From Planctomycetota bacterium (GTDB lineage: Bacteria > Planctomycetota > PLA2): a stretch of DNA of 64,000 bases. Below the pieces are notes generated by a model. It was not told where the DNA came from. It saw nothing but the letters and a program-made list of their open reading frames with translations, and ran no database searches. A program made the position numbers and the translations under genes. The DNA lies in NCBI GenBank assembly GCA_021776785.1, contig JAJFFF010000044.1, positions 282,230 through 346,229 of the forward strand, read 5' to 3'. Of this stretch, positions 17,069 through 27,293 are shown one piece after another (the stretch's first letter is position 1; each line of letters starts with the position of its first letter).

Positions 17069-18502
17069 TTAGCGCGTCTGGCAGGAGTTGCAGTGGATGT
17101 CTTCGTCGCCGGCGCGGCTATCCGCCCAGACAACAAAAACGACGTCCCCGTCGTGGCCGATCTTGGGCTTGCGCGAATCGCTTGCGCCCGCGGCCGAGGT
17201 GTCGGTCCGCATGTCGACGGCCTGCCATGTGGTTCCGTTGTCGTTCGAGAAGTTGAAACGAACGTCATAGGACCCGTCACGGTTGTCTTGCCATGCGGCG
17301 TAGACGTTCGTGCCGGTCGCGGAAATCGTGACCCAGTCCGAACGGGCCGTGCCGGCGTCGTCGGTGTCGATGCGAACATCGTCCGTCAACCAGGTGGCGC
17401 CGCCATCTTTGCTCACGTTCATGAACACGTCGCGGTCCGCCGTGCGGTTGTCAATCCAAACCACATACACCTTGTCGTCCGCGGTGCAGGTGACCTGCGT
17501 GCGGAACGAGAACGTCGCGCCGGCCGTGTCCGTGTCGAGGCGAACATCGGTTGCCAAGAACGTAGTTCCGGCATCGGTGCTCGTCGAGAAGTACGTATCG
17601 GACTGACCGTTACGCGTGTCGGACCAGCTCACATAGACCTTGTCGCCATCGCAGTCGATGGCCGGGTCGAACGAGGTGGCTGCACCCGCGACATCGGTGT
17701 CGAGGCGCACGTCGGCGGCAAGCCAGGTGGCGCCGCGATCCGTCGAAGCGTTCACATAGATGTCTTGCAGGCCGTCACGGTTGTCGTGCCATACGACATA
17801 CACGCGCGCACCGGCCACGGCCATGCGCGGGCGATCCGCCGAGCCAACACTGTTGCTGACCGCGGCCTCGTCCGAGAACGTGGTGCCGCCATCAGCCGAA
17901 CCGCGGAAGTACACAACGCGGCTACCGGTGCGGTCGTCTTCCCAAACAACGTAGACGTTGCTGCCGTCGACCGCAATGCGCGGGTCGCCGGAGATACCAA
18001 CGCCAGCAACGTCCTGATCGAGACGCACGTCCTGCGCGAGCCAAGTCGCGCCACCATCCAGCGAACGCTGGAAGTAGATGTCGTTCTCGCCGTTACGCGC
18101 GTCTTCCCAGACGATGACCACAGTGTTGCCACTGCAGGCGATCTGGACTTCGGCAGACTCGCTGGAACCAGCGACGCTCGTGTTGACGCGCACATCGGCG
18201 GTGCTCCACGTGTCGCCGGCATCCGTCGACTTCGAGAAGTAGATGTCTTTCGCGCCATCGCGGGAGTCTTCCCACGCCGCGTAGACGGTGAGGCCGGTCG
18301 AGCAGATCTGAACGTCGCTAGCGTCGCCGCCAGTGCCGTCGCGATCCACGCGAATGTCGGTCTCCAAAAAGTTCGCGCCGAAGTTGACCGTACCGGTCCC
18401 CGCGGCTAATCCGCTGCTGCCTCCGCTGCAGCCGATCGATACTGTCATGAGCGCGGCGGCGGCTATGCCGCACCATCGGCGCAATGACGTTGACCATTCC
18501 AT
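17069..18502 (-). CDS. BNR/Asp-box repeat beta-propeller lipoprotein (~8 tandem ~43-aa blades)
   Basis: Repeated S-x-D-x-G-x-T-W/F Asp-box motifs (STDAGDTW, SLDGGATW, SADGGTTF, STDRGATW, STDAGTTF, SKDGGATW, SNDNGTTW). The start at 18502 follows AGGAGA and gives MEWSTSLRRWCGIAAAALMTVSIGCSGG (signal plus Cys). The DNA shows ~129-bp periodicity. Confidence 0.75.
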   Translation of the reverse strand: MEWSTSLRRWCGIAAAALMTVSIGCSGGSSGLAAGTGTVNFGANFLETDIRVDRDGTGGDASDVQICSTGLTVYAAWEDSRDGAKDIYFSKSTDAGDTWSTADVRVNTSVAGSSESAEVQIACSGNTVVIVWEDARNGENDIYFQRSLDGGATWLAQDVRLDQDVAGVGISGDPRIAVDGSNVYVVWEDDRTGSRVVYFRGSADGGTTFSDEAAVSNSVGSADRPRMAVAGARVYVVWHDNRDGLQDIYVNASTDRGATWLAADVRLDTDVAGAATSFDPAIDCDGDKVYVSWSDTRNGQSDTYFSTSTDAGTTFLATDVRLDTDTAGATFSFRTQVTCTADDKVYVVWIDNRTADRDVFMNVSKDGGATWLTDDVRIDTDDAGTARSDWVTISATGTNVYAAWQDNRDGSYDVRFNFSNDNGTTWQAVDMRTDTSAAGASDSRKPKIGHDGDVVFVVWADSRAGDEDIHCNSCQTR

Positions 18503-18758
18503 TTGATTCTCCTGCCGGACTTCCCCGTGATTGGACGAACCCATCCGCCCCACTTGCTTTCGCCGGCACCATGAGAATTGGTGGGAAAGCACATCACTTG
18601 ATTTTGAATCGAGAAAAAAGAGCCCGGGGACTGCTTCGAAATGAAACAGCGCCTAGGCGCGCGGCCCGGGATTCCACTGCGGCCGCCCGGCACTATTACC
18701 GCGCCGACCTCACGTTACACCTTCCGCGACGCGCCAAAACTCCGATGATCATGGCGTC

Positions 18759-19193
18759 ATGGATCCCGTCGCACGACTTCGCAAGGAGTTCTTGGAGAGC
18801 CAAGAACAGGCGATGCGTCGAACGTCACGGCAGCAGCGGCGGCGACGCTTCAACGGCGCACTGGCCGGCGGTATCGCCGGGATCGTAGCGACGGCGGTGT
18901 CCGCGGCGTTCACGCGCCAATCGATCGAGTGGCACTCGTTTGTACTCGAGGGCGTGTTCAGCACGGTCGCCGGCTATGTCTTAGCGCGCATCGGCGGGGG
19001 CATCTTGCCGGGCATCTTGTTGTTCACGACGGCGTACTGGGCCGCGTTCTTTACGCGCGCGGGCGGATTCGATCCGAGCGTAATCTTCGGCGCGGCTGAT
19101 CTCCGCGCCGCGGCCGCGGGCCAGGGCCATCTCATGACGCTCTCGATGCTCGTCGCCATCGGCGGCCTGTTCGGCCATCAGATCGAAGGCTGA
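18759..19193 (+). CDS. Hypothetical membrane protein
   Basis: 144-aa ORF with 3 predicted hydrophobic helices. No recognisable family. Confidence 0.4.
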   Translation: MDPVARLRKEFLESQEQAMRRTSRQQRRRRFNGALAGGIAGIVATAVSAAFTRQSIEWHSFVLEGVFSTVAGYVLARIGGGILPGILLFTTAYWAAFFTRAGGFDPSVIFGAADLRAAAAGQGHLMTLSMLVAIGGLFGHQIEG

Positions 19194-19197
19194 CAAG

Positions 19198-19641
19198 TTA
19201 CGGCTGCAGCGCGTAGCGCAAGATCTCGACGACCTGCTCCGGCGAATCGGCAACGGCTAACGCGGCGCGATCGACTTCTTTCAACGCATGGCCGAGCTCG
19301 TCGGGATGAAGCGTGATCACAGGCTTGCCGAGCGCCGCCGCGTAGCCCGCGTCAAAAGCAGCGTTCCACTGCCGGTACTTGTCCCCGAAACGCACCACGA
19401 CAAAGTCGGCGGCCGCGATGAGGTGGCGAGTCCGCACGGCATTGACACCAGCCCCCTTGTGGTCCCGCCAAACCGGCTTTTCTTCCGGCCCTAAAATGTC
19501 CACCCCGCACGCATCACTCTTGCCGTGGTCGGTGACGGGAGCCGTCAAGACCACCGGTAAGCCGAGCTGCTCAACGCCGGCGCGGATCCGATCGCGCCAA
19601 TCGGAGTGGATTTCGCCCGAGAGATACACCTGAGTTGCCAT
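19198..19641 (-). CDS. YtoQ-family protein (nucleoside 2-deoxyribosyltransferase-like fold)
   Basis: MATQVYLSGEIHSDWRDRI...LTAPVTDHGKSD...GPEEKP resembles the Bacillus YtoQ N-terminus (VYLAGEIHSNWREEI). Confidence 0.65.
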   Translation of the reverse strand: MATQVYLSGEIHSDWRDRIRAGVEQLGLPVVLTAPVTDHGKSDACGVDILGPEEKPVWRDHKGAGVNAVRTRHLIAAADFVVVRFGDKYRQWNAAFDAGYAAALGKPVITLHPDELGHALKEVDRAALAVADSPEQVVEILRYALQP

Positions 19642-19662
19642 CCGCCTATTATGACGCGAAGT

Positions 19663-19691
19663 TGACCCGCCCGCGACCCGCGACTAGCTTG
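19663..19691 (+). promoter_or_regulatory. Possible sigma70-like promoter (TTGACC-17 nt-TAGCTT) directly upstream of the thioredoxin-like ORF. It would imply a near-leaderless start.
   Basis: Sequence ttgacccgcccgcgacccgcgactagctt ends 6 nt before the ATG at 19697. This rests on a weak motif match only. Confidence 0.25.
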
Positions 19692-19696
19692 CGTGG

Positions 19697-20092
19697 ATGC
19701 GTTCTTCTCAATTTCTCCTCCCCCTCCTCCCGATCCTGCTGGCAGCATGCGAACCGTCGCCGGAGACCCCCAAAGACTCCTCCGACGGCGAACAGGCAAC
19801 AGCGCAGCGGCCTGTCGTTCGTTACTACGTCCTCTCCGAGTCGTGACCGTTTTGCCAAAAGGTCGTAGTTGCGATCAACAAAATCAAACCTGACTTTTCG
19901 GACCGTGTGGACTTCGAGATCCTCGACGCCAATTCGGTCGCCGGCAAAGCCGCTTCCGCCAAGCACGGTTGGGATTTGGGCCCGCGCCACGGCATCGCGA
20001 TGGAGCGCGGGGACGAAGTCCTCAACAGCCTGTCCGGCCACAGCTATGGCGAGCAACACATTCGCGACATGATCGAAGTGGGGCTCTCATAG
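19697..20092 (+). CDS. Thioredoxin-fold (redox_disulf_1/Thioredoxin_3-like) lipoprotein with an in-frame TGA at the first Cys of the CxxC motif. Candidate selenoprotein (UxxC), alternatively a nonsense pseudogene.
   Basis: ATG at 19697 opens MRSSQFLLPLLPILLAACEPSP... (lipobox LAAC) ...RPVVRYYVLSES-[TGA 19844-19846]-PFCQKVVVAINKIKPDFSDRVDFEILDANSVAGKAASAKHGWDLGPRHGIAMERGDEVLNSLSGHSYGEQHIRDMI, stopping at TAG 20090. The part after the TGA aligns to the archaeal/bacterial small thioredoxin family (kIevFtSptCPyC...idVEkiDimvd...AieyGimaVPaiaiNGvv...GaPs.eel), with U in place of the first Cys. Confidence 0.5.
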
Positions 20093-22311
20093 TCGATCGC
20101 GTTCGTATCGTCGAACAACAGTTCGACGACTATCTCGAGACCGCAACGGCCGCGCCGACGCCTCTGGCGGGGGACGCGCCGCTGCGTCCGGGGAGCCGTC
20201 TGTCGGCACGGCGCGCGCTCGCGCTGTTTGAAGATCAGGTGACGAGCCGGGCCCTCGACGTGGCCGCACGCCGCCTAAAAACGCACGGTGCTTCCTACTA
20301 CACGATCTCCAGTGCCGGACATGAGCAGAACGCGATCATCGGTTCGCTGCTGCGCACAACGGATCCGTGCTTTCTCCACTACCGCTCGGGCGGACTGATG
20401 ATGGCGCGCGCGCGCCAGCACCCGTCGGCCACGCCGATCTTCGACACGCTCCTAAGCCTCTGCGCTTCGCGCGACGATCCGATTTCTGGAGGACGCCACA
20501 AGGTGTGGGGTTCCAAAGAACTCTGGGTTCCGCCGCAGACTTCAACGATCGCGTCGCACCTTCCGAAAGCGGTCGGCGCAGCGTTCGCGCTGGGTCGCGC
20601 ACGGCGCGTGGGCATCGACGCGCCGCTTCCGCCCGACGCGATCGTGTGCGCATCGTTCGGCGACGCGTCCGCAAACCACGCCACCGCGTTGACCGGCATC
20701 AACGCCGCGCGCTACGCGAACCGGCGCGGCAACCAAGTACCGATTCTGTTCGTCTGCGAAGACAACGGCATCGGCATCTCGGTCGAAACTCCGCGCCGCT
20801 GGATTCGAGACGCGTTCGGAAACCTTGCTCACCTCCACTACTTCGAAGCGGACGGCGAACTGGAGCAGATGTGGGATACGTGCGCTGGCGCGATCGACTT
20901 TTGTCGCGCGGGACGCGGCCCCGTGTTTTTGCACCTGCGCTGCGTTCGCTTGTGGGGCCACGCCGGAAGCGATATCGAAACGGCGTATCGTGCGCTGCCG
21001 GAGATCGTAAGCAGCGAACGCCGCGACCCGTTGCTGGGTAACGCCCGACGGTTGATCGAGACCGGCGCGGCGGCCCCCGCAACACTGCGCAACATCGTAC
21101 GCGACGTGCGCCACCGTGTGACGGCGGCGTCGGTGGACGCCAGCCAGCGCGGCCACCTCGACACGCTCGCGGAAGTCACGGCCCCGATGGCTCCGTATGA
21201 CGCTCCGCGCTGCCGCGCGGCCGCCGATGCTGCACTGCGACCCGCCGACCGACGCGACGCGTGGGGCGAAGGACTTCCCGAAGCGGAAACCGCGCCGTCC
21301 AAGCGCACGATGGCGGCGCACATCAACGCGGCGTTGACCGACGAGATGGCGCGGCGGCGCGAGATCGTCGTGTTCGGTGAGGACGTTGGAAAAAAGGGTG
21401 GCGTCTACTACGTGACGGCGGGACTGCAAAAGAAGTTCGGCGCATCGCGCGTGTTCGACACCCTGCTCGACGAAACCACGATCCTGGGCGTGGCGCAGGG
21501 GGCCGCGCTGGTTGGCTTGTTGCCCGTGCCCGAGATTCAGTATCTGGCGTACGTGCACAACGCCGTCGATCAGTTGCGCGGCGAGGCGAGTTCGCTCTCA
21601 TTTTTCTCCAACGGCCAGTTTGTCAATCCCATGGTCGTCCGCATCGCTTCATTCGCCTACCAACGCGGCTTCGGCGGTCACTTCCACAACGACAATTCGA
21701 TCGGCGGACTACGCGACATTCCGGGCCTTGTGATGGCGGCGCCCTCGCGCGGCGACGATGCCGCGAAAATGCTGCGCGGCTGCCTGGCGATGGCGGCGGA
21801 ATGCGGACGCGTCGTTTGTTTTCTCGAACCCATCGCGCTGTACCACCAAAAAGACCTCTACGAGGAGGGCGACGGCGGTTGGCTGTTCGACTACCCGCCG
21901 CCCGGCGCATCGCTCCTGCCCGACGAAGTCGGCGTGTACGGCGATGGCGACGTCACGATTTTCAGCTACGCCAACGGCCTGCGCCTGAGCCTCCGTGCCG
22001 CGCGCACGCTGCAAGAACAACATGGCCGGCGTGTGAAAGTTGTGGACCTGCGCTGGCTTAATCCGCTCCCGACGCTTGCGATCGAAGAGCATGCGCACGA
22101 GGCGGCGAGCGTTATCGTGGTGGACGAGTGCCGCGCCACCGGCGGCGGGATCGCGGACGCGGTCATCGCTCATCTCGCCGAAACCGGCTACCGCGGTCGC
22201 CTTCGCTCCGTGCGCGCCGCCGACAGTTTTGTTCCGCTGGGGCCGCCCACGGCCGCGGTGCTCGTGTGCGAAGATGACATCGTGACCACGGTCTTGGAGG
22301 CCACGTCTTGA
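19969..22311 (+). CDS. TPP-dependent 2-oxoacid dehydrogenase E1 component, fused alpha and beta subunits
   Basis: N-terminal half ...YRSGGLMMAR...ICASFGDASANHATALTGINAARY (E1 alpha TPP-binding). C-terminal half MAAHINAALTDEMARRREIVVFGEDVGKKGGVYYVTAGLQKKFGASRVFDTLLDETTILGVAQGAALVGL (E1 beta/transketolase-like). The start is uncertain: the only in-frame start upstream of the conserved region is TTG at 19969, which lies inside the preceding ORF. Confidence 0.8.
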   Translation: MGFGPAPRHRDGARGRSPQQPVRPQLWRATHSRHDRSGALIVDRVRIVEQQFDDYLETATAAPTPLAGDAPLRPGSRLSARRALALFEDQVTSRALDVAARRLKTHGASYYTISSAGHEQNAIIGSLLRTTDPCFLHYRSGGLMMARARQHPSATPIFDTLLSLCASRDDPISGGRHKVWGSKELWVPPQTSTIASHLPKAVGAAFALGRARRVGIDAPLPPDAIVCASFGDASANHATALTGINAARYANRRGNQVPILFVCEDNGIGISVETPRRWIRDAFGNLAHLHYFEADGELEQMWDTCAGAIDFCRAGRGPVFLHLRCVRLWGHAGSDIETAYRALPEIVSSERRDPLLGNARRLIETGAAAPATLRNIVRDVRHRVTAASVDASQRGHLDTLAEVTAPMAPYDAPRCRAAADAALRPADRRDAWGEGLPEAETAPSKRTMAAHINAALTDEMARRREIVVFGEDVGKKGGVYYVTAGLQKKFGASRVFDTLLDETTILGVAQGAALVGLLPVPEIQYLAYVHNAVDQLRGEASSLSFFSNGQFVNPMVVRIASFAYQRGFGGHFHNDNSIGGLRDIPGLVMAAPSRGDDAAKMLRGCLAMAAECGRVVCFLEPIALYHQKDLYEEGDGGWLFDYPPPGASLLPDEVGVYGDGDVTIFSYANGLRLSLRAARTLQEQHGRRVKVVDLRWLNPLPTLAIEEHAHEAASVIVVDECRATGGGIADAVIAHLAETGYRGRLRSVRAADSFVPLGPPTAAVLVCEDDIVTTVLEATS

Positions 22312-23297
22312 AACGCACCGTCATCGTCTTGCCCGGACGCGGCTCGTACACAAAACGCGCCCGCCGCTCGCTCCCGACAGAGCACGCGTGGGTCGCACGC
22401 GCGGACGCACTGCGCGCGGAGTACGGGCTGCCCTCGCTGGTCGAGCTCGACCACGCCGATCGATGGAAGAGCTCCGTCCAACTTCGGCCCGACAACGTGT
22501 CGCCCACGATCTGGTTGATCTCGATGATCGACGCGCACGCCGCGATGCAGGAGCACGAGGCGGTCGCTGTGGCCGGCAATTCAATGGGTTGGTACACCGC
22601 GCTTGCCGTCGCCGGCGTGCTCTCGTTCGACGACGGGTTCCGCCTTGTCCAGGAGATGGCGCTGCTGCAGATGGAGCACAAAGACGGCGGGCAGATTCTC
22701 TACCCGTTGGTCGACGATCAATGGCGCGTCGACCCCCGTCAAGTCGACCGCGTGCAGGCGGTGCTGGCCTCGCGCGACGACGTTTTCGAGTCCATTCGTT
22801 TGGGCGGTTTCGTGGTGCTCGCCGGAACTGAAGACGGCGTGGGCGCTATCCTCGACACGCTGCCCGGCGTGGAGATGGGTCCGAGCGTGTTCCCGGTCCG
22901 ACTGGCGCAACATGGTCCCTATCACACCGCACTGCTCAACGCCGTCGCGCAAAAAGCGCGCGCGCAGTTGTCGCGTTTGCCATTTCGCGCGCCCGATGTC
23001 ACGCTCATTGACGGCACCGGCCGGCGCCACACGCCGGCGTCCGCGGATCCGGTGGCGCTGCGCGATTACACGCTCGGCGATCAGATCACGACGCTGTTCG
23101 ACTTCACAACGTCGATCCGCGTCGCGTACCGCGAGTTCGCGCCTGACTTTTTGACGCTGACCGGCCCCGGCAACACGTTGGGAAGCATCTGCGCGCACGT
23201 AGCGATCGCCAATCGCGTACGGAAGATCGAGTCGCGGCACGAATTTGAAGCCGTTCAGGAAAGCGATTCCCCCCTCCTCTGGTCCATGCGACGCTGA
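22308..23297 (+). CDS. Acyltransferase-domain protein (FabD/malonyl-CoA:ACP transacylase-like)
   Basis: VIVLPGRGSY (compare FabD FPGQGSQ). VAVAGNSMGWYTALAVAGVLSFDDGFRLVQEMALLQ matches the GHSxG nucleophile elbow and downstream helix of FabD (GHSLGEYSALVAAG..SFED..KLV). ATGA overlap with the E1 stop. Confidence 0.65.
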   Translation: MKRTVIVLPGRGSYTKRARRSLPTEHAWVARADALRAEYGLPSLVELDHADRWKSSVQLRPDNVSPTIWLISMIDAHAAMQEHEAVAVAGNSMGWYTALAVAGVLSFDDGFRLVQEMALLQMEHKDGGQILYPLVDDQWRVDPRQVDRVQAVLASRDDVFESIRLGGFVVLAGTEDGVGAILDTLPGVEMGPSVFPVRLAQHGPYHTALLNAVAQKARAQLSRLPFRAPDVTLIDGTGRRHTPASADPVALRDYTLGDQITTLFDFTTSIRVAYREFAPDFLTLTGPGNTLGSICAHVAIANRVRKIESRHEFEAVQESDSPLLWSMRR

Positions 23298-23303
23298 GGC
23301 GCT

Positions 23304-24452
23304 TTGATCGCGCGCCCGCAATCCATCGTCTCGCTCGCGACGAAGTTCTACGTCGCGGCCGCACTCCTCGCGTGGGCTTGGGCGGCGTTTTGGGACGTGT
23401 CGCTCTGGGGCGACCGGAGCCCTTCGACCGACCATCTGCTCGAGGGTCTTTGGACGGGCCTCGGGATCGTCGTGTTTTGCCACTTGGCCGTCGCGATCAT
23501 TCCCGCGTTCCGACGCGCCGGCGAAAAGATGGCGGAACTTCTCGGTCCCGTCGCGCCCCTCCAAGCGATTTACTTGGCGTTGCTTTCCGGCATGGCAGAG
23601 GAGCTCGTGTTTCGCGGCGCACTCTGGGATCAACTCGGACTCATCGGAACATCGGTGTTTTTCGGGCTCTGTCACGTCGTCCCGGTGCGCGGGCTGGCCG
23701 GCTATCCCGTGTTCGCGTTTTTTGCGGGACTGATCTTGGGAGCGCTGCGCGAGTACAGCGGTTCGGTGGGGCCACCGATCGTCGCGCACGTCACGGTCAA
23801 CGCGATCAACCTCGCGTGGATCGGACGCCGCACGCCGCATCGAAGACGTGCGCCAGACGATCCTCCCGACGCGGACGACGACGCGGACGACGAAGCGGAC
23901 GCCGACGCGGCGAGCCCGGAGCGCTCCGACATGCACTTCCCGGACGAGATCGAGATTCCGGATACGTTCCCGATCACGATCTGGCGCTACGACCTCCGCG
24001 TCGAGCTCTCCGGGACGGACCGACAAACGTTGCCACAGTGTTTGGAGCACGAAGAGCTCTCCCTTTTTCGATATGTTCCCCGCGAGGCGGTCTACGACGA
24101 ACTGAGTGACGGACGCTTTGTGTTTTCGCACTCGTTCGACGCGCCGCTCAGCACGTTTCCAGCCGACGTCGCCGCGTTGTCCAGCTACCTATTTGAGCCG
24201 GTCATCGGAATCGAAGTAGCGGAGCGATTCGTCGATGAAAAGACAACCGACGACGTACGCGCGTGGAAGATCGTGGCGCAACGCGGACAGTGGGTCAAAG
24301 TACCGCTGGTCGTCGACCAGCCGGAACCCAATCGCTTCCTCGTCGATCCCGACAACGAAGACGAAGCCGTACTGCGCGCGCAGTGGTCGACGTTTCCGCG
24401 CTGGTTTCAGGACGCGATGCGCTATCGCTACCCGCGACTCCGCGATCTGTAG
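23304..24452 (+). CDS. CPBP-family intramembrane metalloprotease (CAAX protease/Abi) with an acidic linker and a ~200-aa C-terminal soluble domain of unknown function
   Basis: EELVFRGALWDQLG (EExxxR motif), FGLCHV, and PIVAHVTVNA (HxxxN) in a multi-TM N-terminal half. These are followed by DDPPDADDDADDEADADAA and an uncharacterised C-terminal domain. Confidence 0.7.
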   Translation: MIARPQSIVSLATKFYVAAALLAWAWAAFWDVSLWGDRSPSTDHLLEGLWTGLGIVVFCHLAVAIIPAFRRAGEKMAELLGPVAPLQAIYLALLSGMAEELVFRGALWDQLGLIGTSVFFGLCHVVPVRGLAGYPVFAFFAGLILGALREYSGSVGPPIVAHVTVNAINLAWIGRRTPHRRRAPDDPPDADDDADDEADADAASPERSDMHFPDEIEIPDTFPITIWRYDLRVELSGTDRQTLPQCLEHEELSLFRYVPREAVYDELSDGRFVFSHSFDAPLSTFPADVAALSSYLFEPVIGIEVAERFVDEKTTDDVRAWKIVAQRGQWVKVPLVVDQPEPNRFLVDPDNEDEAVLRAQWSTFPRWFQDAMRYRYPRLRDL

Positions 24453-24467
24453 CCAGGGCCTATCGAA

Positions 24468-25967
24468 CTAGCGACAGGAGTAGGTTTCGTCCGTCAGTGC
24501 GTCTGCGATCACGACAACGCGACGCAAGTGCGGTCCGGTGTCTCCGCCTTCGCCGCCTGCGAGCACCGTGAGGCCGTTGCGATCCACAAAGCCGATGTGC
24601 GCGCCCATCGCGATGGGTAGCTCGACATTGCGCACGGTATAGACGATGGCGTCCGGCAAACCAAACGAACCGGAAGGTAGGTAGTCAACGATCTCGAGCG
24701 AGCGGATCGGCGGAGATCCGGGCTCAGAAATGCGGAGTCCTCCCGCCGCGAGAAAGCGGCGTCCGGTGCCGTCACGCGGCGTCAGAGAAAACGCACCGCG
24801 ACGATCGCGCAAAAGATCTCGCGCGAAAAAGGACCCGTTCGACGAGAAGTCATAGACGACGATTGAGCGTGTGTCACCGCCGACGATGAGGAGTCGGTCC
24901 GCGTCAACCCGGTGCGCTTCCGCGCGAAATCGAATGTCGCCCTCGGGTCGAGACTGGATCTCAAGGCCCGTAAAACGAGCCGCTGTGCTCTCCAAGTTGC
25001 CAACGCCGAAGTACACCTCGAAATCGCCATGCAAAAACTGCACATGCTGGGCCGATGCCACAGGCAACGGGTGCCCGAAATCGGTCCATTCGATCGCGTC
25101 CAGCACCTCCACGCTGTCGAGGCGTTCGCCCGCGGCGTCAAACCCGCCGGACACCATCACCTCCAAGCCGCTGGCGAAAAGGGATGCCGCATGCCAGCGA
25201 CGGGCGGTAAGAAGTTCGGCTGAGGGAGCGAAGTTGCCCGACGCGGGATCAAAAATTTCCGTGGAAGCCAACGGCGCTCCGCCGACCGTGGACACTCCGC
25301 CCACGATCAACACACGACCGTTCGGCAAAAGCGTCAGCGTGTGCTCGGCGCGCGGCACCATCATCTTGGACGTATGCACCGAAAAACTAAGCGTCGCCGG
25401 GTCCCAGATTTCGACCGTATCCGTCGCGTCGGTCTCGTCGATGAACCCGCCGAAAATCATGAACCGCCCATCACGCAGCCGAATACCCCGCGCGAATGCG
25501 CGTCCGACGTTGAGCCGGTCTCCCAGATCAAGGAGCTGATCGGGGCGTACGGTCGGCGTCGCGCTTTCGGTGATGAAACAGATGCGCTGGGCCGCGGCGA
25601 GGGGCGAGCCCGCTGCGCTCGTGACGCCGACACCCACGATGAGCTCGTACTCGGTGTTCGGTTCGAGCGACTCGATCGGCTCGACGCGCGCCGTCGAGGA
25701 GTTAAACGCCTGCGTCTCGACGCGAATCCCAACCGGGGCCCCGCCGAATGGCTGGAGGCGAATGTTGGCCGCCGTGAGCGTGTTCAGGTCCGCGGACTGC
25801 GAAAACGTAATCGCCACGCCGTTCGCGATGCCAGCCGTTGTGTCGCCGTTCTCAGGCACGGTCGCGAACAAGGTGAACCCCGTCGCACCGCCGCCGTCCG
25901 AGCCACCACCACCACCGCCCCCACAGGCGGCAGCGCAGACAAATCCCATGATGAAGACAAATCGCAT
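24468..25967 (-). CDS. Kelch-repeat beta-propeller lipoprotein with an N-terminal Ig-like domain
   Basis: Start at 25967 gives MRFVFIMGFVCAAACGGGGGGGSDGG (lipobox). An Ig-like region (GIANGVAITFSQSADLNTLTAANIRLQ...EPNTEYELIVGVGVTSAAGSPL) is followed by repeated ...DGRxxxxGG...D..E.WDP... Kelch-like blades. Confidence 0.65.
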   Translation of the reverse strand: MRFVFIMGFVCAAACGGGGGGGSDGGGATGFTLFATVPENGDTTAGIANGVAITFSQSADLNTLTAANIRLQPFGGAPVGIRVETQAFNSSTARVEPIESLEPNTEYELIVGVGVTSAAGSPLAAAQRICFITESATPTVRPDQLLDLGDRLNVGRAFARGIRLRDGRFMIFGGFIDETDATDTVEIWDPATLSFSVHTSKMMVPRAEHTLTLLPNGRVLIVGGVSTVGGAPLASTEIFDPASGNFAPSAELLTARRWHAASLFASGLEVMVSGGFDAAGERLDSVEVLDAIEWTDFGHPLPVASAQHVQFLHGDFEVYFGVGNLESTAARFTGLEIQSRPEGDIRFRAEAHRVDADRLLIVGGDTRSIVVYDFSSNGSFFARDLLRDRRGAFSLTPRDGTGRRFLAAGGLRISEPGSPPIRSLEIVDYLPSGSFGLPDAIVYTVRNVELPIAMGAHIGFVDRNGLTVLAGGEGGDTGPHLRRVVVIADALTDETYSCR

Positions 25968-26066
25968 CTTCCCTCGATCTCTCAAACTTGCGGCCCGCCC
26001 GCCCGTTATAACGGATCGCACCCCGCGGGACAGGCTCGAATTCGGACCACACGAGAAGCGAACCCA

Positions 26067-27293
26067 ATGATGTCTACATACCGAACCATTTCCAACCCGG
26101 GCGGAAGGCCGATCAAAGCGTGGACGCATGGCGTTCCGGTCGATGAGAAGGCGATCCAACAGCTCCAAAACGTCGGCCAGCTCCCCATCATCCACCGCTG
26201 GGTCGCGGCGATGCCCGATGTCCATTGGGGAATCGGCGCGACCGTCGGCAGCGTCATTCCGACCGTGAAAGCGATTATCCCCGCGGCCGTCGGCGTCGAC
26301 ATCGGCTGCGGCATGATGGCCGTGCGCACGACGCTATCGGCGTCCGACCTTCCCGACGATCTGCGCGGTATTCGGCACGCGATGGAAAAAGCGGTCCCCC
26401 ACGGGCGCACGGATCGCGGCGGAAAAAACGATCGCGGGTCGTGGTCGAACACACCGGCCGTCGCCGAGAAGCGTTGGAAAAAACTCCGCGCCGGATACAA
26501 GGAAATCACCGAGCGTCACCCGTCCCTCGACCGCGGCAAGACTCTTGAACAACTCGGCACGTTGGGCACCGGCAATCACTTCATCGAAGTCTGCCTCGAC
26601 CAGGAAAACGCCGTGTGGCTCATGCTGCACAGCGGATCGCGCGGCGTCGGCAATCGCATCGGTCAGCACTTCATTCGGTTGGCCAAAAAAGACATGCAGG
26701 GCCATCTGAGCCAGCTTCCCGACGAAGACCTCGCGTATTTCTCGGAGGGCTCGGATCACTTTCATGACTACGTCGCTGCCGTCGATTGGGCGCAGCGATT
26801 TGCGCGGACCAATCGCGAGCTCATGATGGAAGCGACGTTGGCGGCGCTGCAACGGCGCAAAGACCTCCCGAAGTTTCAGGCCGACAAGCTTGCGGTGAAC
26901 TGCCACCACAACTACGTCGCGCAGGAGCACCACTATGGCAAAGACGTCTTCGTGACCCGCAAGGGGGCGGTGAGCGCGGCGGTCGGTGAACTCGGGATCA
27001 TTCCCGGCAGCATGGGCGCGCGCTCCTACATCGTCTCGGGCAAAGGGCACGCGGAGAGTTTTTGCTCGTGCAGCCACGGCGCCGGGCGCGCACTCTCGCG
27101 GACGCAAGCCAAGCGGCAATTCACAGTCGCCGATCACGAACGGGCGACGGCGGGCGTCGAGTGCCGCAAGGATGCCGCCGTCATCGACGAAACGCCGGCC
27201 GCGTATAAGGACATCGAGGCCGTGATGGCCGCACAATCCGATCTCGTCGAGATTCTGTACACGCTCAAGCAGGTCGTGTGCGTAAAGGGGTAG
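26067..27293 (+). CDS. rtcB: RNA-splicing ligase RtcB
   Basis: PDVHWGIGATVGSV, GCGMMAV, GTGNHFIEV and CSHGAGRALSRTQA are the conserved RtcB metal- and GTP-binding blocks. 408 aa from ATG 26067. Confidence 0.9.
   Translation: MMSTYRTISNPGGRPIKAWTHGVPVDEKAIQQLQNVGQLPIIHRWVAAMPDVHWGIGATVGSVIPTVKAIIPAAVGVDIGCGMMAVRTTLSASDLPDDLRGIRHAMEKAVPHGRTDRGGKNDRGSWSNTPAVAEKRWKKLRAGYKEITERHPSLDRGKTLEQLGTLGTGNHFIEVCLDQENAVWLMLHSGSRGVGNRIGQHFIRLAKKDMQGHLSQLPDEDLAYFSEGSDHFHDYVAAVDWAQRFARTNRELMMEATLAALQRRKDLPKFQADKLAVNCHHNYVAQEHHYGKDVFVTRKGAVSAAVGELGIIPGSMGARSYIVSGKGHAESFCSCSHGAGRALSRTQAKRQFTVADHERATAGVECRKDAAVIDETPAAYKDIEAVMAAQSDLVEILYTLKQVVCVKG

What the first reader, a model, noticed from the sequence alone, without database searches (positions are those of the whole stretch)
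19697..24452. Operon of a thioredoxin-like (Sec?) lipoprotein, a fused alpha/beta E1 dehydrogenase, a FabD-like acyltransferase and a CPBP protease, with an unresolved E1 start
The four genes are co-directional and tightly packed. The E1 stop overlaps the acyltransferase ATG (ATGA at 22308), and the CPBP gene starts 7 nt after the acyltransferase stop. A stand-alone E1 (TPP-dependent decarboxylating dehydrogenase) is present with no E2 or E3 partners, and it is paired with an acyl-transferase domain. This is not a standard 2-oxoacid dehydrogenase complex and suggests a dedicated acyl-group generation and transfer pathway, possibly lipid or natural-product related. The only in-frame start for E1 upstream of its conserved N-terminal region is TTG at 19969, which lies 124 nt inside the thioredoxin-like ORF. 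This means either a long out-of-frame overlap, a non-canonical start, or translational linkage between the two genes.
Basis: partly seen in the sequence, partly recalled or inferred. Interest (0 to 1): 0.55.

Follow-up and report, generated by a model that had tools for sequence, protein, structure and literature searches.

The report
Selenoprotein gene overlapping conserved E1–acyltransferase pair
A Planctomycetota gene cluster holds a selenocysteine-containing thioredoxin-like lipoprotein, then a thiamine-dependent E1 enzyme that starts at a non-standard AUA codon and is translationally coupled to a FabD-like acyltransferase; this enzyme pair has no known function, recurs in hundreds of species, and may make glutaryl-CoA.

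Summary
The four co-directional genes are real. One detail is wrong: the E1/acyltransferase overlap is TTGA, not ATGA.

1. The small gene (19697-20092) encodes an exported thioredoxin-like lipoprotein. Its UGA at 19844 is selenocysteine: all 27 homologous loci keep TGA in a U-P-F/Y-C motif, and no Cys form was found.
2. The E1 start is resolved. It is ATA at 20089, overlapping the upstream TAG. Eight related lineages carry ATA, ATC, ATT or CTG at this conserved N-terminal position, and three have no canonical alternative. Substitution patterns exclude both TTG 19969 and the annotated GTG 20239.
3. The conserved unit is E1 plus the FabD-fold acyltransferase. It is adjacent in 80 of 80 genome loci from three phyla, with a 4-nt overlap in 64 of 71. 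E2, E3 and ACP are never nearby. The thioredoxin-like and CPBP genes are clade-specific additions.
4. The acyltransferase keeps the Ser/His pair but lacks FabD's malonyl-binding Arg117. It has an invariant Arg11.
5. In Ruegeria, Shewanella and Legionella the orthologous E1 sits beside glutaryl-CoA dehydrogenase. This suggests a 2-oxoadipate to glutaryl-CoA role.

Function remains inferred. Interest is moderate.

The parts
19697..20092 (+). Gene for a 131-residue exported thioredoxin-like lipoprotein with selenocysteine. It has a signal peptide and lipobox (LLAAC) and the active-site motif S-U-P-F-C. Stop codon is TAG 20090-20092.
   Evidence: Translation. All 27 homologous loci keep the in-frame TGA, a signal peptide with lipobox upstream, and conserved coding on both sides. 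The family profile hits thioredoxins in PDB (E 0.002) with the second Cys aligned to Trx Cys35. No Pfam or NCBIfam family reaches its cut-off.
19844..19846 (+). UGA read as selenocysteine. It occupies the first position of the U-x-x-C redox motif, equivalent to the nucleophilic Cys32 of thioredoxin.
   Evidence: TGA in 27 of 27 loci, never TGC or TGT, although the search pattern did not constrain this codon. The only four hits in 1.84 billion representative proteins are 61-75 aa fragments that start just after the TGA.
19861..19876 (+). Candidate bacterial SECIS hairpin GGUCGU-AGUU-GCGAUC, 14 nt after the UGA.
   Evidence: All 6 pairs are kept in the four closest lineages, with G.U/A-U and U.G/U-A changes. 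The loop is GGUC in L005, L088 and L090. Folding energy is -4.9 kcal/mol. There are no double compensatory changes, and more distant family members use a different hairpin. Status: plausible, not proven.
20089..22311 (+). Fused alpha/beta E1 (ThDP-dependent 2-oxo acid dehydrogenase component), 740 aa, starting at ATA 20089. The ATA overlaps the upstream TAG stop (ATAG).
   Evidence: Pfam domains. Catalytic residues kept: beta-Glu59, beta-His128, alpha-His271/291 and the GDA...EDNG metal/ThDP motif. About 60 relatives start with ATG, GTG or TTG three to seven (mostly four) codons before the R of RVxxVE. Eight clade lineages have ATA, ATC, ATT or CTG there. The 20089-20238 segment evolves as coding in the E1 frame, with differences by codon position of 13/6/31. 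The 19969-20088 segment does not, at 18/10/8, and the closest relative has a stop there.
22308..23297 (+). FabD-fold Ser-His acyltransferase, 329 aa. Its TTG start overlaps the E1 TGA stop (TTGA).
   Evidence: The AF2 model has pLDDT 95.9, and its best PDB matches are FabD/MCAT. GNSMG Ser92 and His206 are invariant. FabD Arg117 is replaced by Met/Ile/Leu in 69 of 69 family members, and FabD Gln11 by an invariant Arg. The TIGR00128 score of 61.5 is far below the 260.9 cut-off.
23304..24452 (+). CPBP (Rce1-like) intramembrane glutamic protease with a roughly 200-aa C-terminal domain of unknown family. It is a clade-specific third gene of the operon.
   Evidence: PF02517 at 53 bits against a 22.4 cut-off. 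The motifs EELVFR, FGLCH and HVTVN are visible in the translation. The C-terminal 202 aa have no Pfam hit. A homologue lies directly after the acyltransferase only in L005/L007, L008, L013 and L016.

Best explanation
SHOWN.
- The cluster is a clade-specific elaboration of a widely conserved two-gene module: a fused alpha/beta ThDP-dependent E1, followed with a 4-nt stop/start overlap by a FabD-fold Ser-His acyltransferase.
- In the window's Planctomycetota clade, a gene for an exported thioredoxin-like selenoprotein lipoprotein (U-P-F-C) lies directly upstream, and a CPBP protease gene lies directly downstream.
- E1 begins at the near-cognate codon AUA (20089), which overlaps the selenoprotein gene's UAG. 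Sister lineages use AUC, AUU or CUG at the same place.

INFERRED.
- E1 translation is weak, or depends on ribosomes that terminate at the upstream stop. The acyltransferase is translated by coupling to E1.
- E1 keeps every residue needed for decarboxylation and for reductive acylation of a lipoyl group. It probably decarboxylates a 2-oxo acid and hands the acyl group to a lipoyl carrier (E2 or E3) encoded elsewhere.
- Orthologous E1 genes sit next to glutaryl-CoA dehydrogenase in Ruegeria, Shewanella and Legionella, and next to an aminotransferase as well in Ruegeria. The likeliest substrate is therefore 2-oxoadipate, giving a glutaryl thioester as in lysine or tryptophan catabolism.
- The acyltransferase lacks FabD's malonyl-binding Arg117 but has an invariant Arg11 lining the acyl pocket. 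It would take this carboxy-acyl group onto Ser92 and pass it between thiol carriers (lipoyl, CoA or ACP).
- The selenoprotein and the CPBP protease are envelope proteins with no demonstrated functional tie to the enzyme pair.
For: Anatomy and Sec.

E1 start:
- A canonical start lies 3 to 7 (mostly 4) codons before the conserved Arg in about 60 loci.
- ATA, ATC, ATT or CTG occupies that place in 8 clade lineages. L088, L013 and L101 have no canonical in-frame alternative.
- GGAGG lies 5-6 nt upstream of ATC/ATT in L013 and L119.
- Codon-position substitution patterns support the E1 frame from 20089 onward.
- An independent assembly of the same sequence is identical.

Pair conservation: 80 of 80 loci in Planctomycetota, Chloroflexota and Methylomirabilota, from at least 592 species hits. 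The 4-nt overlap is present in 64 of 71. No other neighbour is conserved.

E1 catalytic residues.

Acyltransferase fold and residues. Role of Arg117 in FabD: PMC10054515 and PMC11775670.

Glutaryl-CoA lead:
- Ruegeria has aminotransferase-gcdH-E1-AT and Shewanella has gcdH-E1-AT.
- The ACAD is a GCDH, with E 1e-191 to B. pseudomallei GCDH and 5e-166 to the human enzyme.
- Legionella adelaidensis has E1 overlapping a gcdH homologue.
Against: - No gcdH, aminotransferase operon, E2, E3, lipoyl or ACP gene is near the pair in the window or in the Planctomycetota and Chloroflexota loci.
- The proteobacterial E1 and acyltransferase are only 46-49% and 34-40% identical to the window's proteins, so substrate may differ.
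- E1 orthologues at 66-67% identity occur without the acyltransferase. Legionella has E1-gcdH without it. The acyltransferase is therefore not obligatory for E1.
- Public sources name the E1 '2-oxoisovalerate dehydrogenase E1'.
- In E. coli, an aUAA junction did not support coupled initiation (PMC9955659). AUA use here would need different initiation stringency or would give very low expression.
- The SECIS hairpin shows no compensatory covariation.
- Sec machinery was not seen in the window.
Confidence: 0.45

Rival explanations
1. The E1 is the branched-chain 2-oxo acid dehydrogenase E1, as KEGG and JGI name it, working with E2 and E3 encoded elsewhere. The acyltransferase loads the resulting branched or short acyl-CoA onto ACP as a starter for lipid or polyketide synthesis.
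For: - JGI names the family '2-oxoisovalerate dehydrogenase E1 component'.
- The closest solved alpha subunits are branched-chain-type E1s (1um9, 1dtw).
- The acyltransferase lacks the malonyl-specific Arg117 and has a hydrophobic residue there. This is what is expected for non-carboxylated acyl groups (PMC11775670).
Against: - No ACP, ketosynthase or fatty-acid gene lies near the pair in about 120 loci.
- The only informative neighbours are glutaryl-CoA dehydrogenase and an aminotransferase.
- The invariant Arg11 in the acyl pocket suggests an anionic acyl group.
- PDB similarity to branched-chain E1 is weak (1e-17 for the alpha part) and no better than to PDH E1 for the beta part.
Confidence: 0.2
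2. The FabD-fold enzyme replaces the catalytic core of E2. It moves the acyl group from an S-acyl-dihydrolipoyl carrier, or directly from acyl-ThDP on E1, to CoA. The pair would then be a new architecture of 2-oxo acid dehydrogenase.
For: - Near-universal 4-nt translational coupling implies matched amounts of the two proteins, possibly a complex.
- E2 is never nearby.
- Thioester-to-thioester transfer through an acyl-Ser is exactly FabD chemistry (PMC10054515).
- In Ruegeria the operon aminotransferase-gcdH-E1-AT has every step from amino acid to enoyl-CoA except an E2.
Against: - E1 orthologues exist without an adjacent acyltransferase.
- E1 keeps the histidines used with lipoyl-E2, which fits an ordinary E2 partner equally well.
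- No lipoyl carrier was found nearby.
- There is no structural or biochemical test of an E1-acyltransferase contact.
Confidence: 0.15
3. The acyltransferase homologue is a hydrolase, like the acyl hydrolases of trans-AT polyketide synthases. It releases a free acid from an acyl thioester made through E1. Alternatively, E1 acts non-oxidatively as a decarboxylase or carboligase and the second enzyme is an esterase.
For: AT-fold acyl hydrolases also lack Arg117 (PMC11775670). PksD is among the PDB hits. No acceptor carrier gene is nearby.
Against: - Acyl hydrolases keep Gln or His at the Gln11 position, whereas this family has an invariant Arg.
- Hydrolysis would waste the thioester that gcdH needs in the proteobacterial operons.
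- E1 keeps the residues for reductive acylation.
Confidence: 0.1
4. E1 translation starts at the upstream canonical TTG 19969, giving a 40-residue extension overlapping the selenoprotein gene, or at GTG 20239 as in the public annotation. It would not start at ATA.
For: - TTG 19969 is the only canonical in-frame start upstream.
- L005 and L090 have ATG at the equivalent Gly-Trp codons.
- Gene callers chose GTG 20239.
- AUA is a very poor initiator in E. coli (PMC9955659).
Against: - L088, the closest relative, has an in-frame stop 7 codons upstream and no canonical start. L013 and L101 have none either.
- The 19969-20088 segment evolves only as thioredoxin-frame coding. In the E1 frame it shows 1 synonymous against 27 non-synonymous codon changes.
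- The 20089-20238 segment is conserved across phyla and shows third-position-dominated change in the E1 frame. It is therefore translated, which excludes GTG 20239.
Confidence: 0.1

Closest known systems
Heterotetramer-type (alpha2beta2) E1 of 2-oxo acid dehydrogenase complexes (PDH or BCKDH E1, e.g. T. thermophilus 1UM9, G. stearothermophilus 1W85, human BCKDH 1DTW)
   Same: It has the same three Pfam domains. It keeps the ThDP/Mg motif, beta-Glu59, beta-His128 and the alpha-His of the phosphorylation-loop region.
   Different: - Alpha and beta are fused in one 740-aa chain.
- It is distant in sequence (E 1e-17 for alpha, 1e-35 for beta).
- It scores far below all NCBIfam PDH E1 cut-offs.
- It is never next to E2 or E3, and in at least 592 species hits it is coupled to a FabD-fold gene instead.
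2-Oxoadipate dehydrogenase E1a (human DHTKD1), the known enzyme making glutaryl-CoA from 2-oxoadipate (PMC9367764, listed)
   Same: The proposed reaction and pathway position are the same, directly upstream of glutaryl-CoA dehydrogenase. This proposal rests on gene context in Ruegeria, Shewanella and Legionella.
   Different: From general knowledge, DHTKD1 belongs to the homodimeric OGDH-like E1 class and uses the OGDH E2 and E3. The E1 here is of the alpha/beta class. The substrate assignment is untested.
FabD (malonyl-CoA:ACP transacylase, TIGR00128) and PKS acyltransferases
   Same: The fold is the same (TM 0.72-0.77). It keeps the GxSxG nucleophile Ser92 and the catalytic His, equivalent to FabD His201.
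   Different: - Arg117 is replaced by Met/Ile/Leu, Gln11 by an invariant Arg, and GHSLG by GNSMG.
- It scores 61.5 against a 260.9 cut-off.
- It is not in a fab or PKS context.
Acyl hydrolases of trans-AT polyketide synthases (PksD, PedC type; PMC11775670)
   Same: It is an AT fold with the Ser-His pair and without the carboxylate-binding Arg117.
   Different: Acyl hydrolases keep Gln or His at position 11/12 and sit in PKS clusters. This family has Arg11 and sits after an E1 gene.
Bacterial thioredoxin-fold selenoproteins with a UxxC motif (e.g. NCBIfam SaoT NF040730, TsoX NF045809)
   Same: It is a small thioredoxin-like protein with Sec in place of the nucleophilic Cys. Gene callers truncate it at the UGA.
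   Different: - Similarity to those families is only marginal (E 0.001-0.03, far below cut-offs).
- It is a lipoprotein with a signal peptide.
- No Cys-containing homologue was found.
Overlapping stop/start translational coupling (ATGA or TAATG junctions) and non-AUG initiation such as the AUU start of infC
   Same: There is a four-base stop/start overlap between consecutive genes. The initiation codons are drawn from the table-11 set ATA, ATC, ATT and CTG.
   Different: The start codon inside the overlap is itself near-cognate (ATAG, CTGA). A whole clade uses such codons for one gene, and the upstream ORF needs Sec decoding to be read to its stop. The infC comparison is from general knowledge.

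Membership tests
2-oxo acid dehydrogenase E1 (alpha/beta type) | E1_dh, Transket_pyr and Transketolase_C domains | tested here: met
   Pfam scores of 80.7, 65.8 and 53.9 bits, all above the gathering cut-offs.
2-oxo acid dehydrogenase E1 (alpha/beta type) | ThDP/Mg2+ motif, the cofactor-activating Glu, and the two active-site His used in reductive acylation | tested here: met
   GDAS...EDNG aligns to GDG...NN. LLDETT aligns to beta-Glu59, GHFHNDN to beta-His128, and WGHAGSD to alpha-His271/291. The residue numbering of the reference enzymes is from general knowledge.
2-oxo acid dehydrogenase E1 (alpha/beta type) | Works with lipoylated E2 and with E3, usually encoded in the same operon | tested here: not met
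   No DHRxxDG E2 core, E3 motif, lipoyl domain or GcvH was found in the window or in about 120 loci. Whether E2 and E3 lie elsewhere in the genome could not be tested.
2-oxoadipate dehydrogenase (by function) | Converts 2-oxoadipate to a glutaryl thioester; genetic link to glutaryl-CoA dehydrogenase | tested here: inconclusive
   A gcdH homologue is adjacent in Ruegeria, Shewanella and Legionella. It is absent from the window and from the Planctomycetota and Chloroflexota loci. Activity cannot be tested with these tools.
FabD (TIGR00128 ACP S-malonyltransferase) | HMM score above the curated cut-off | tested here: not met
   61.5 bits against 260.9. Pfam Acyl_transf_1 gives 15.3 against 32.7.
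FabD (TIGR00128 ACP S-malonyltransferase) | Ser92-His201 catalytic pair in a FabD fold | tested here: met
   GNSMG Ser92 and His206 are invariant. The AF2 model with pLDDT 95.9 matches FabD structures at TM 0.72-0.77.
FabD (TIGR00128 ACP S-malonyltransferase) | Arg117 salt bridge to the malonyl carboxylate; Gln11 | tested here: not met
   Position 117 is Met or Ile in all 69 locus-encoded family members with the motif (65 Met, 4 Ile), and Met, Ile or Leu among the 25 aligned homologues (20/3/2). Position 11 is an invariant Arg. The role of these residues is from PMC10054515 and PMC11775670.
Bacterial selenoprotein | In-frame UGA conserved among homologues, with coding conservation on both sides | tested here: met
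   TGA in 27 of 27 loci at the same codon. A signal peptide, lipobox and RYY strand lie upstream, and PFC...GH.[FY]G lies downstream.
Bacterial selenoprotein | UGA aligns with Cys in homologues or in a redox motif | tested here: met
   No Cys-form member was found. The family profile aligns its xxC cysteine to thioredoxin Cys35, which places U at Cys32 of CGPC.
Bacterial selenoprotein | SECIS stem-loop a short distance downstream of the UGA | tested here: inconclusive
   A hairpin lies 14 nt after the UGA and is kept in four close lineages. The larger group has a different, nearly invariant hairpin 16 nt after the UGA. There are no compensatory double changes.
Bacterial selenoprotein | Genome encodes selA, selB, selD and tRNA-Sec | not testable with these tools
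   No tRNA and no SelD-like motif were found in the 64-kb window. The rest of the genome is not available.
Thioredoxin fold | Significant match to thioredoxin-family models or structures | tested here: inconclusive
   The profile against PDB gives thioredoxins at E 0.002-0.006. Pfam Thioredoxin and Glutaredoxin hits are only at E 0.07-0.1. The AF2 model of the 81-aa fragment had pLDDT 44.6 and is unusable.
Bacterial lipoprotein | Signal peptide ending in a lipobox Cys | tested here: met
   The N-terminus reads MRSSQFLLPLLPILLAAC. Equivalent L-x-[AG]-C boxes occur in the homologues. This rests on inspection only.
CPBP / Rce1-like intramembrane protease (PF02517) | HMM above cut-off and the EExxxR, FxxxH and HxxxN motifs | tested here: met
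   53.1 bits against 22.4. EELVFR, FGLCH and HVTVN are present in the translation. No specific NCBIfam subfamily cut-off is reached.

The most novel reading that the evidence does not exclude
The FabD-fold transacylase is a non-homologous replacement for the E2 catalytic core. E1 decarboxylates 2-oxoadipate or a related 2-oxo acid, and the acyltransferase moves the acyl group from a lipoyl carrier or from ThDP to CoA through acyl-Ser92. This would be a previously unrecognised architecture of 2-oxo acid dehydrogenase, present in hundreds of species across several phyla. A second unexcluded novelty concerns expression. In the window's clade E1 starts at a weak AUA or CUG codon inside the stop codon of a selenoprotein ORF. 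Expression of the enzyme pair may therefore depend on successful Sec decoding, which would make it selenium-gated translational coupling.
Probability: 0.15. Interest if true: 0.8.

Novelty: new variant of a known kind. Interest (0 to 1): 0.5.

Why it matters
- The E1-acyltransferase pair is one of the more widespread enzyme couples that still lacks an assigned reaction. It occurs in at least 592 species in the collection scanned. Its names in public annotation ('ACP S-malonyltransferase', '2-oxoisovalerate dehydrogenase E1', even 'MFS transporter') are probably wrong.
- A testable assignment to 2-oxoadipate and glutaryl-CoA metabolism would fill a gap in bacterial lysine and tryptophan catabolism. 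Glutaryl-CoA also feeds biotin synthesis in some bacteria (PMC7645780).
- The locus adds a thioredoxin-like lipoprotein family that seems to exist only in the selenocysteine form, and that gene callers systematically split.
- It shows a whole clade using AUA, AUC, AUU or CUG as the start of one conserved gene. This is a clear case for improving start-site prediction and for studying weak-start or coupled translation outside model bacteria.

Tried and rejected
- The word-indexed protein search with the full thioredoxin-like protein found nothing.
The 81-aa post-UGA fragment with 4 sequences gave pLDDT 44.6, which is unusable.
- MFE folds of 60-nt stretches after the UGA were no better than shuffles. 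RNAalifold over all 24 sequences found only two shared pairs. Pair counting on the major-group hairpin showed no covariation.
- The sigma-70 promoter and terminator scan of 19300-24700 was uninformative.
- Literature searches for the E1-acyltransferase pair, K11381, a fused E1 and a 2-oxoadipate enzyme in bacteria found no description of this module.
- The AFDB fold library was unavailable.
- A frameshift fusion of the selenoprotein (or upstream protein) to E1 was considered and rejected. The E1 frame is -1 relative to the thioredoxin-like gene in the window but +1 relative to the upstream membrane-protein gene in L013. L013 and L119 have GGAGG at ideal spacing before ATC/ATT. A secreted lipoprotein fused to a cytoplasmic ThDP enzyme is also implausible.
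- Sequencing error at ATA was rejected. An independent assembly is identical, and a different organism (L087/L088) also has ATA.
- The acyltransferase as housekeeping fabD was rejected, on the HMM score, the missing Arg117 and the genomic context.

Full report
OBSERVATION.

The window is GC-rich (about 63%). It comes from a Planctomycetota metagenome-assembled genome, judging by the names of the closest homologues. Four + strand genes lie at 19697-24452:

- A small ORF interrupted by TGA at 19844.
- A fused alpha/beta E1, with Pfam E1_dh, Transket_pyr and Transketolase_C all above cut-off.
- A 329-aa FabD-like protein.
- A 382-aa CPBP protease, PF02517.

The E1 stop and the next start overlap by four bases. 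The CPBP gene starts at TTG 23304, six bases after the acyltransferase stop. TTG 19969 is the only ATG, GTG or TTG in the E1 frame upstream of the conserved N-terminus.

THE SMALL GENE IS A SELENOPROTEIN.

Read through the TGA, it encodes MRSSQFLLPLLPILLAAC...VVRYYVLSES-U-PFCQK.... That is a signal peptide with a lipobox, a beta-strand, and a U-x-x-C motif.

- A syntenic relative (L005) has the same in-frame TGA, in M-U-P-Y-C.
- An exhaustive HMMER search of 1.84 billion representative proteins with the post-TGA part found only four proteins. All are 61-75 aa fragments that begin just after the TGA, meaning gene callers cut every member there.
- Fetching their contigs and scanning metagenomes gave 27 loci. 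The scan pattern did not constrain the Sec codon. All 27 have TGA and none has TGC or TGT. Wherever the 5' end is present, a lipoprotein signal peptide lies upstream.
- A profile of the family hits thioredoxins in PDB (E 0.002) with its Cys aligned to Trx Cys35. Sec therefore takes the place of the nucleophilic Cys32.
- No Pfam or NCBIfam model reaches its cut-off.

A hairpin, GGUCGU-AGUU-GCGAUC at 19861-19876, lies 14 nt after the UGA. It is kept in the four closest lineages, three of them with a GGUC loop. The larger, more distant group has a different and almost invariant hairpin with a GUG loop. Neither hairpin shows compensatory double changes, so the SECIS assignment is plausible but unproven. 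Sec machinery is not in the window.

THE E1 START.

About 60 relatives, across Planctomycetota, Chloroflexota, Methylomirabilota, Gemmatimonadota and Acidobacteriota, begin with ATG, GTG or TTG three to seven (mostly four) codons before the Arg of a conserved R-V-x-x-V-E motif.

In the window's own clade that position holds a near-cognate codon:

- ATA in the window and in L088, both forming ATAG with the upstream TAG stop.
- CTG in L005, L090, L101 and L118, each forming CTGA with the upstream TGA stop.
- ATC in L013 and ATT in L119. These two have no thioredoxin-like gene upstream but have GGAGG 5-6 nt before the codon.

L088, L013 and L101 have no canonical in-frame start upstream at all. 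L088 has a stop seven codons up.

Substitution patterns between the window and L088 separate the candidate regions:

- 20089-20238 changes mainly at third codon positions of the E1 frame (13/6/31), so it is translated as E1.
- 19969-20088 does not fit the E1 frame (18/10/8; 1 synonymous against 27 non-synonymous codons), but it does fit the thioredoxin-like gene's frame (10/8/17).

The annotated start GTG 20239 is therefore too far downstream. That start gives the 690-aa public protein P0125. The TTG 19969 extension is not supported either. The best reading is initiation at ATA 20089, giving a 740-aa protein.

An independent assembly carries the identical sequence, so this is not a sequencing error. 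A caution applies: in E. coli, an aUAA junction did not support coupled initiation (PMC9955659). Initiation here is probably inefficient, or the organism discriminates start codons less strictly.

WHAT IS CONSERVED.

The acyltransferase family is large. There were 2363 hits among the 8000 candidates scored, named 'ACP S-malonyltransferase' by sources. A scan of one genome per species found at least 592 species with a relative.

- In all 80 loci kept, the fused E1 lies directly upstream. These loci come from Planctomycetota (including the isolate Engelhardtia mirabilis), Chloroflexota and Methylomirabilota.
- In 64 of 71 loci with both gene ends, the genes overlap by four bases.
- Clustering all ORFs in the flanks found no other conserved neighbour.
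- Motif and tblastn screens found no E2 core, E3, lipoyl domain, GcvH or ACP in the window or in any locus.
- The CPBP gene follows the acyltransferase only in the window's close relatives (L005, L008, L013, L016). The selenoprotein gene precedes E1 only in a few Planctomycetota lineages (window, L088, L005, L090, L036/L114, L101, L118). In the rest of its family it sits elsewhere.

The functional unit is therefore E1 plus acyltransferase, and the 'four-gene operon' is a clade-specific arrangement.

THE TWO ENZYMES.

E1 is a distant member of the alpha/beta E1 class (PDB E 1e-17 for alpha and 1e-35 to 1e-38 for beta). It keeps the ThDP/Mg motif, beta-Glu59, beta-His128 and the alpha-His used in reductive acylation. 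It looks like a complete, lipoyl-competent E1.

Orthologues at 66-67% identity in Gemmatimonadota and Acidobacteriota are solo genes, without the acyltransferase, E2 or E3. Being stand-alone is normal for this family, and E1 does not strictly need an adjacent acyltransferase.

The acyltransferase models with high confidence (pLDDT 95.9). It superposes on FabD/MCAT structures at TM 0.72-0.77 and about 20% identity. Ser92 (in GNSMG) and His206 (equivalent to FabD His201) are invariant. FabD Arg117, which salt-bridges the malonyl carboxylate (PMC10054515, PMC11775670), is Met, Ile or Leu throughout the family. FabD Gln11 is an invariant Arg. The protein scores far below the FabD model cut-off. 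It is FabD-like in fold and chemistry but is not FabD.

A FUNCTIONAL LEAD.

Annotated plasmid and chromid records of cultured bacteria carry the same pair.

- In Ruegeria sp. THAF33 the order is class-I aminotransferase, acyl-CoA dehydrogenase, E1, acyltransferase. E1 is 49% and the acyltransferase 40% identical to the window's proteins.
- In Shewanella aestuarii the order is acyl-CoA dehydrogenase, E1, acyltransferase.
- That acyl-CoA dehydrogenase is a glutaryl-CoA dehydrogenase, with E 1e-191 to the Burkholderia enzyme and 5e-166 to the human one.
- In Legionella adelaidensis the E1 gene overlaps a gcdH homologue (53% identical to the Ruegeria one), and no acyltransferase is present.

From general knowledge of lysine and tryptophan catabolism, the only 2-oxo acid whose oxidative decarboxylation gives glutaryl-CoA is 2-oxoadipate, formed from 2-aminoadipate by an aminotransferase. 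The human reaction is described in PMC9367764 (listed).

This suggests that the E1 family is a 2-oxoadipate dehydrogenase E1 of the alpha/beta class. The acyltransferase would then handle a glutaryl group, with Arg11 as a candidate ligand of the distal carboxylate.

The lead is indirect for the window. No gcdH lies near the pair in Planctomycetota or Chloroflexota loci, and identities to the proteobacterial proteins are moderate. No paper describing the pair was found.

MECHANISM, WITH STATUS OF EACH STEP.

- Shown: gene anatomy, Sec codon conservation, the near-cognate E1 start position, the coupled E1-acyltransferase pair, retained catalytic residues, and the FabD fold without Arg117.
- Inferred: E1 decarboxylates a 2-oxo acid, probably 2-oxoadipate, and reductively acylates a lipoyl carrier encoded elsewhere. 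The acyltransferase forms an acyl-Ser92 intermediate and passes the acyl group between thiol carriers. E1 is expressed at a low level or through ribosomes terminating at the upstream stop, and the acyltransferase is expressed through coupling to E1.
- Unexplained: why an envelope selenoprotein and a CPBP protease flank the pair in this clade.

RIVALS.

- A branched-chain E1 plus a starter-unit acyltransferase. This matches the database naming but has no context support.
- The acyltransferase as a replacement for the E2 core. This is attractive and novel but untested.
- The acyltransferase as a hydrolase.
- A canonical start for E1, which is disfavoured.

VERDICT.

The finding is real and richer than described. 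The genes belong to known kinds: an alpha/beta E1, a FabD-fold acyltransferase, a UxxC thioredoxin-like selenoprotein and a CPBP protease. The widespread E1-acyltransferase module has no assigned function, the selenoprotein family is uncatalogued, and the clade-wide use of AUA, AUC, AUU and CUG starts is unusual. I rate it a new variant of a known kind, with moderate interest (0.5).

Noticed in passing
window 19907-20092 and 20239-22311; L004; P0121, P0125: Public gene calls for this very sequence split the selenoprotein gene into a 61-aa fragment. They also truncate E1 to 690 aa by starting at GTG 20239. Relatives are truncated in the same way: 704 aa in L005 and 729 aa in L013.
   Followed up: yes
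P0151, P0168, P0236 (E1 homologues): Several E1 orthologues in nr are named 'MFS transporter' (Acidobacteria, Gemmatimonadales), although they carry the three E1 Pfam domains. This is probably propagated misannotation.
   Followed up: no
window 19198-19641 (- strand): A YtoQ-family nucleoside 2-deoxyribosyltransferase-like gene (PF11071, E 9e-63) is divergently transcribed from the selenoprotein gene. It keeps that position in L005, L088, L090 and L118.
   Followed up: partly
window 18759-19193 (+ strand); L013 3516-3950; L119 1926-2360: A 144-aa predicted membrane protein has no Pfam family. In L013 and L119 a 144-aa gene in the same place (similar in L013, not compared in L119) lies directly upstream of E1, where the YtoQ and selenoprotein genes are absent. 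This suggests those two genes were inserted, or lost, between it and E1.
   Followed up: partly
window 23844-24449 (C-terminal half of the CPBP protein): A roughly 200-aa soluble domain follows an acidic Asp/Ala-rich linker. It has no Pfam match even at E 5, so it is an unknown domain fused to the protease.
   Followed up: partly
L094-L112 (metagenome loci), columns 31-47 of alignment A5: In the larger branch of the selenoprotein family, which is not next to E1, the stretch GCCGCCGTG[G/A]GCGAGCT after the UGA is nearly invariant. This includes four-fold degenerate sites, while nearby synonymous sites vary. The pattern is consistent with an RNA-level (SECIS) constraint.
   Followed up: partly
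L026, L027, L032, L034, L041 (4-7 kb downstream of the acyltransferase, opposite strand): A class-I aminotransferase is present in five Planctomycetota loci. It is 37-39% identical to the one in the Ruegeria aminotransferase-gcdH-E1-AT operon. The linkage is weak and the loci may be close relatives of one another.
   Followed up: no
window 24468-26225 (-), about 26070-27293 (+), 27411-30203 (+), 17069-18592 (-): The neighbouring genes are:
- a Kelch/Big_5 repeat protein convergent with the CPBP gene;
- an RtcB ligase homologue;
- a 930-aa protein with an ECF-sigma-like N-terminus and a long C-terminal extension;
- a BNR-repeat protein.
None recurs with the E1-acyltransferase pair outside the closest relatives.
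   Followed up: no
L123 (NZ_LT559118.1, Nonomuraea gerenzanensis): An 11.85-Mb record is listed as a plasmid in the plasmid collection and is evidently a chromosome. It carries a solo E1 orthologue (48% identity) with no acyltransferase or gcdH within 8 kb.
   Followed up: partly
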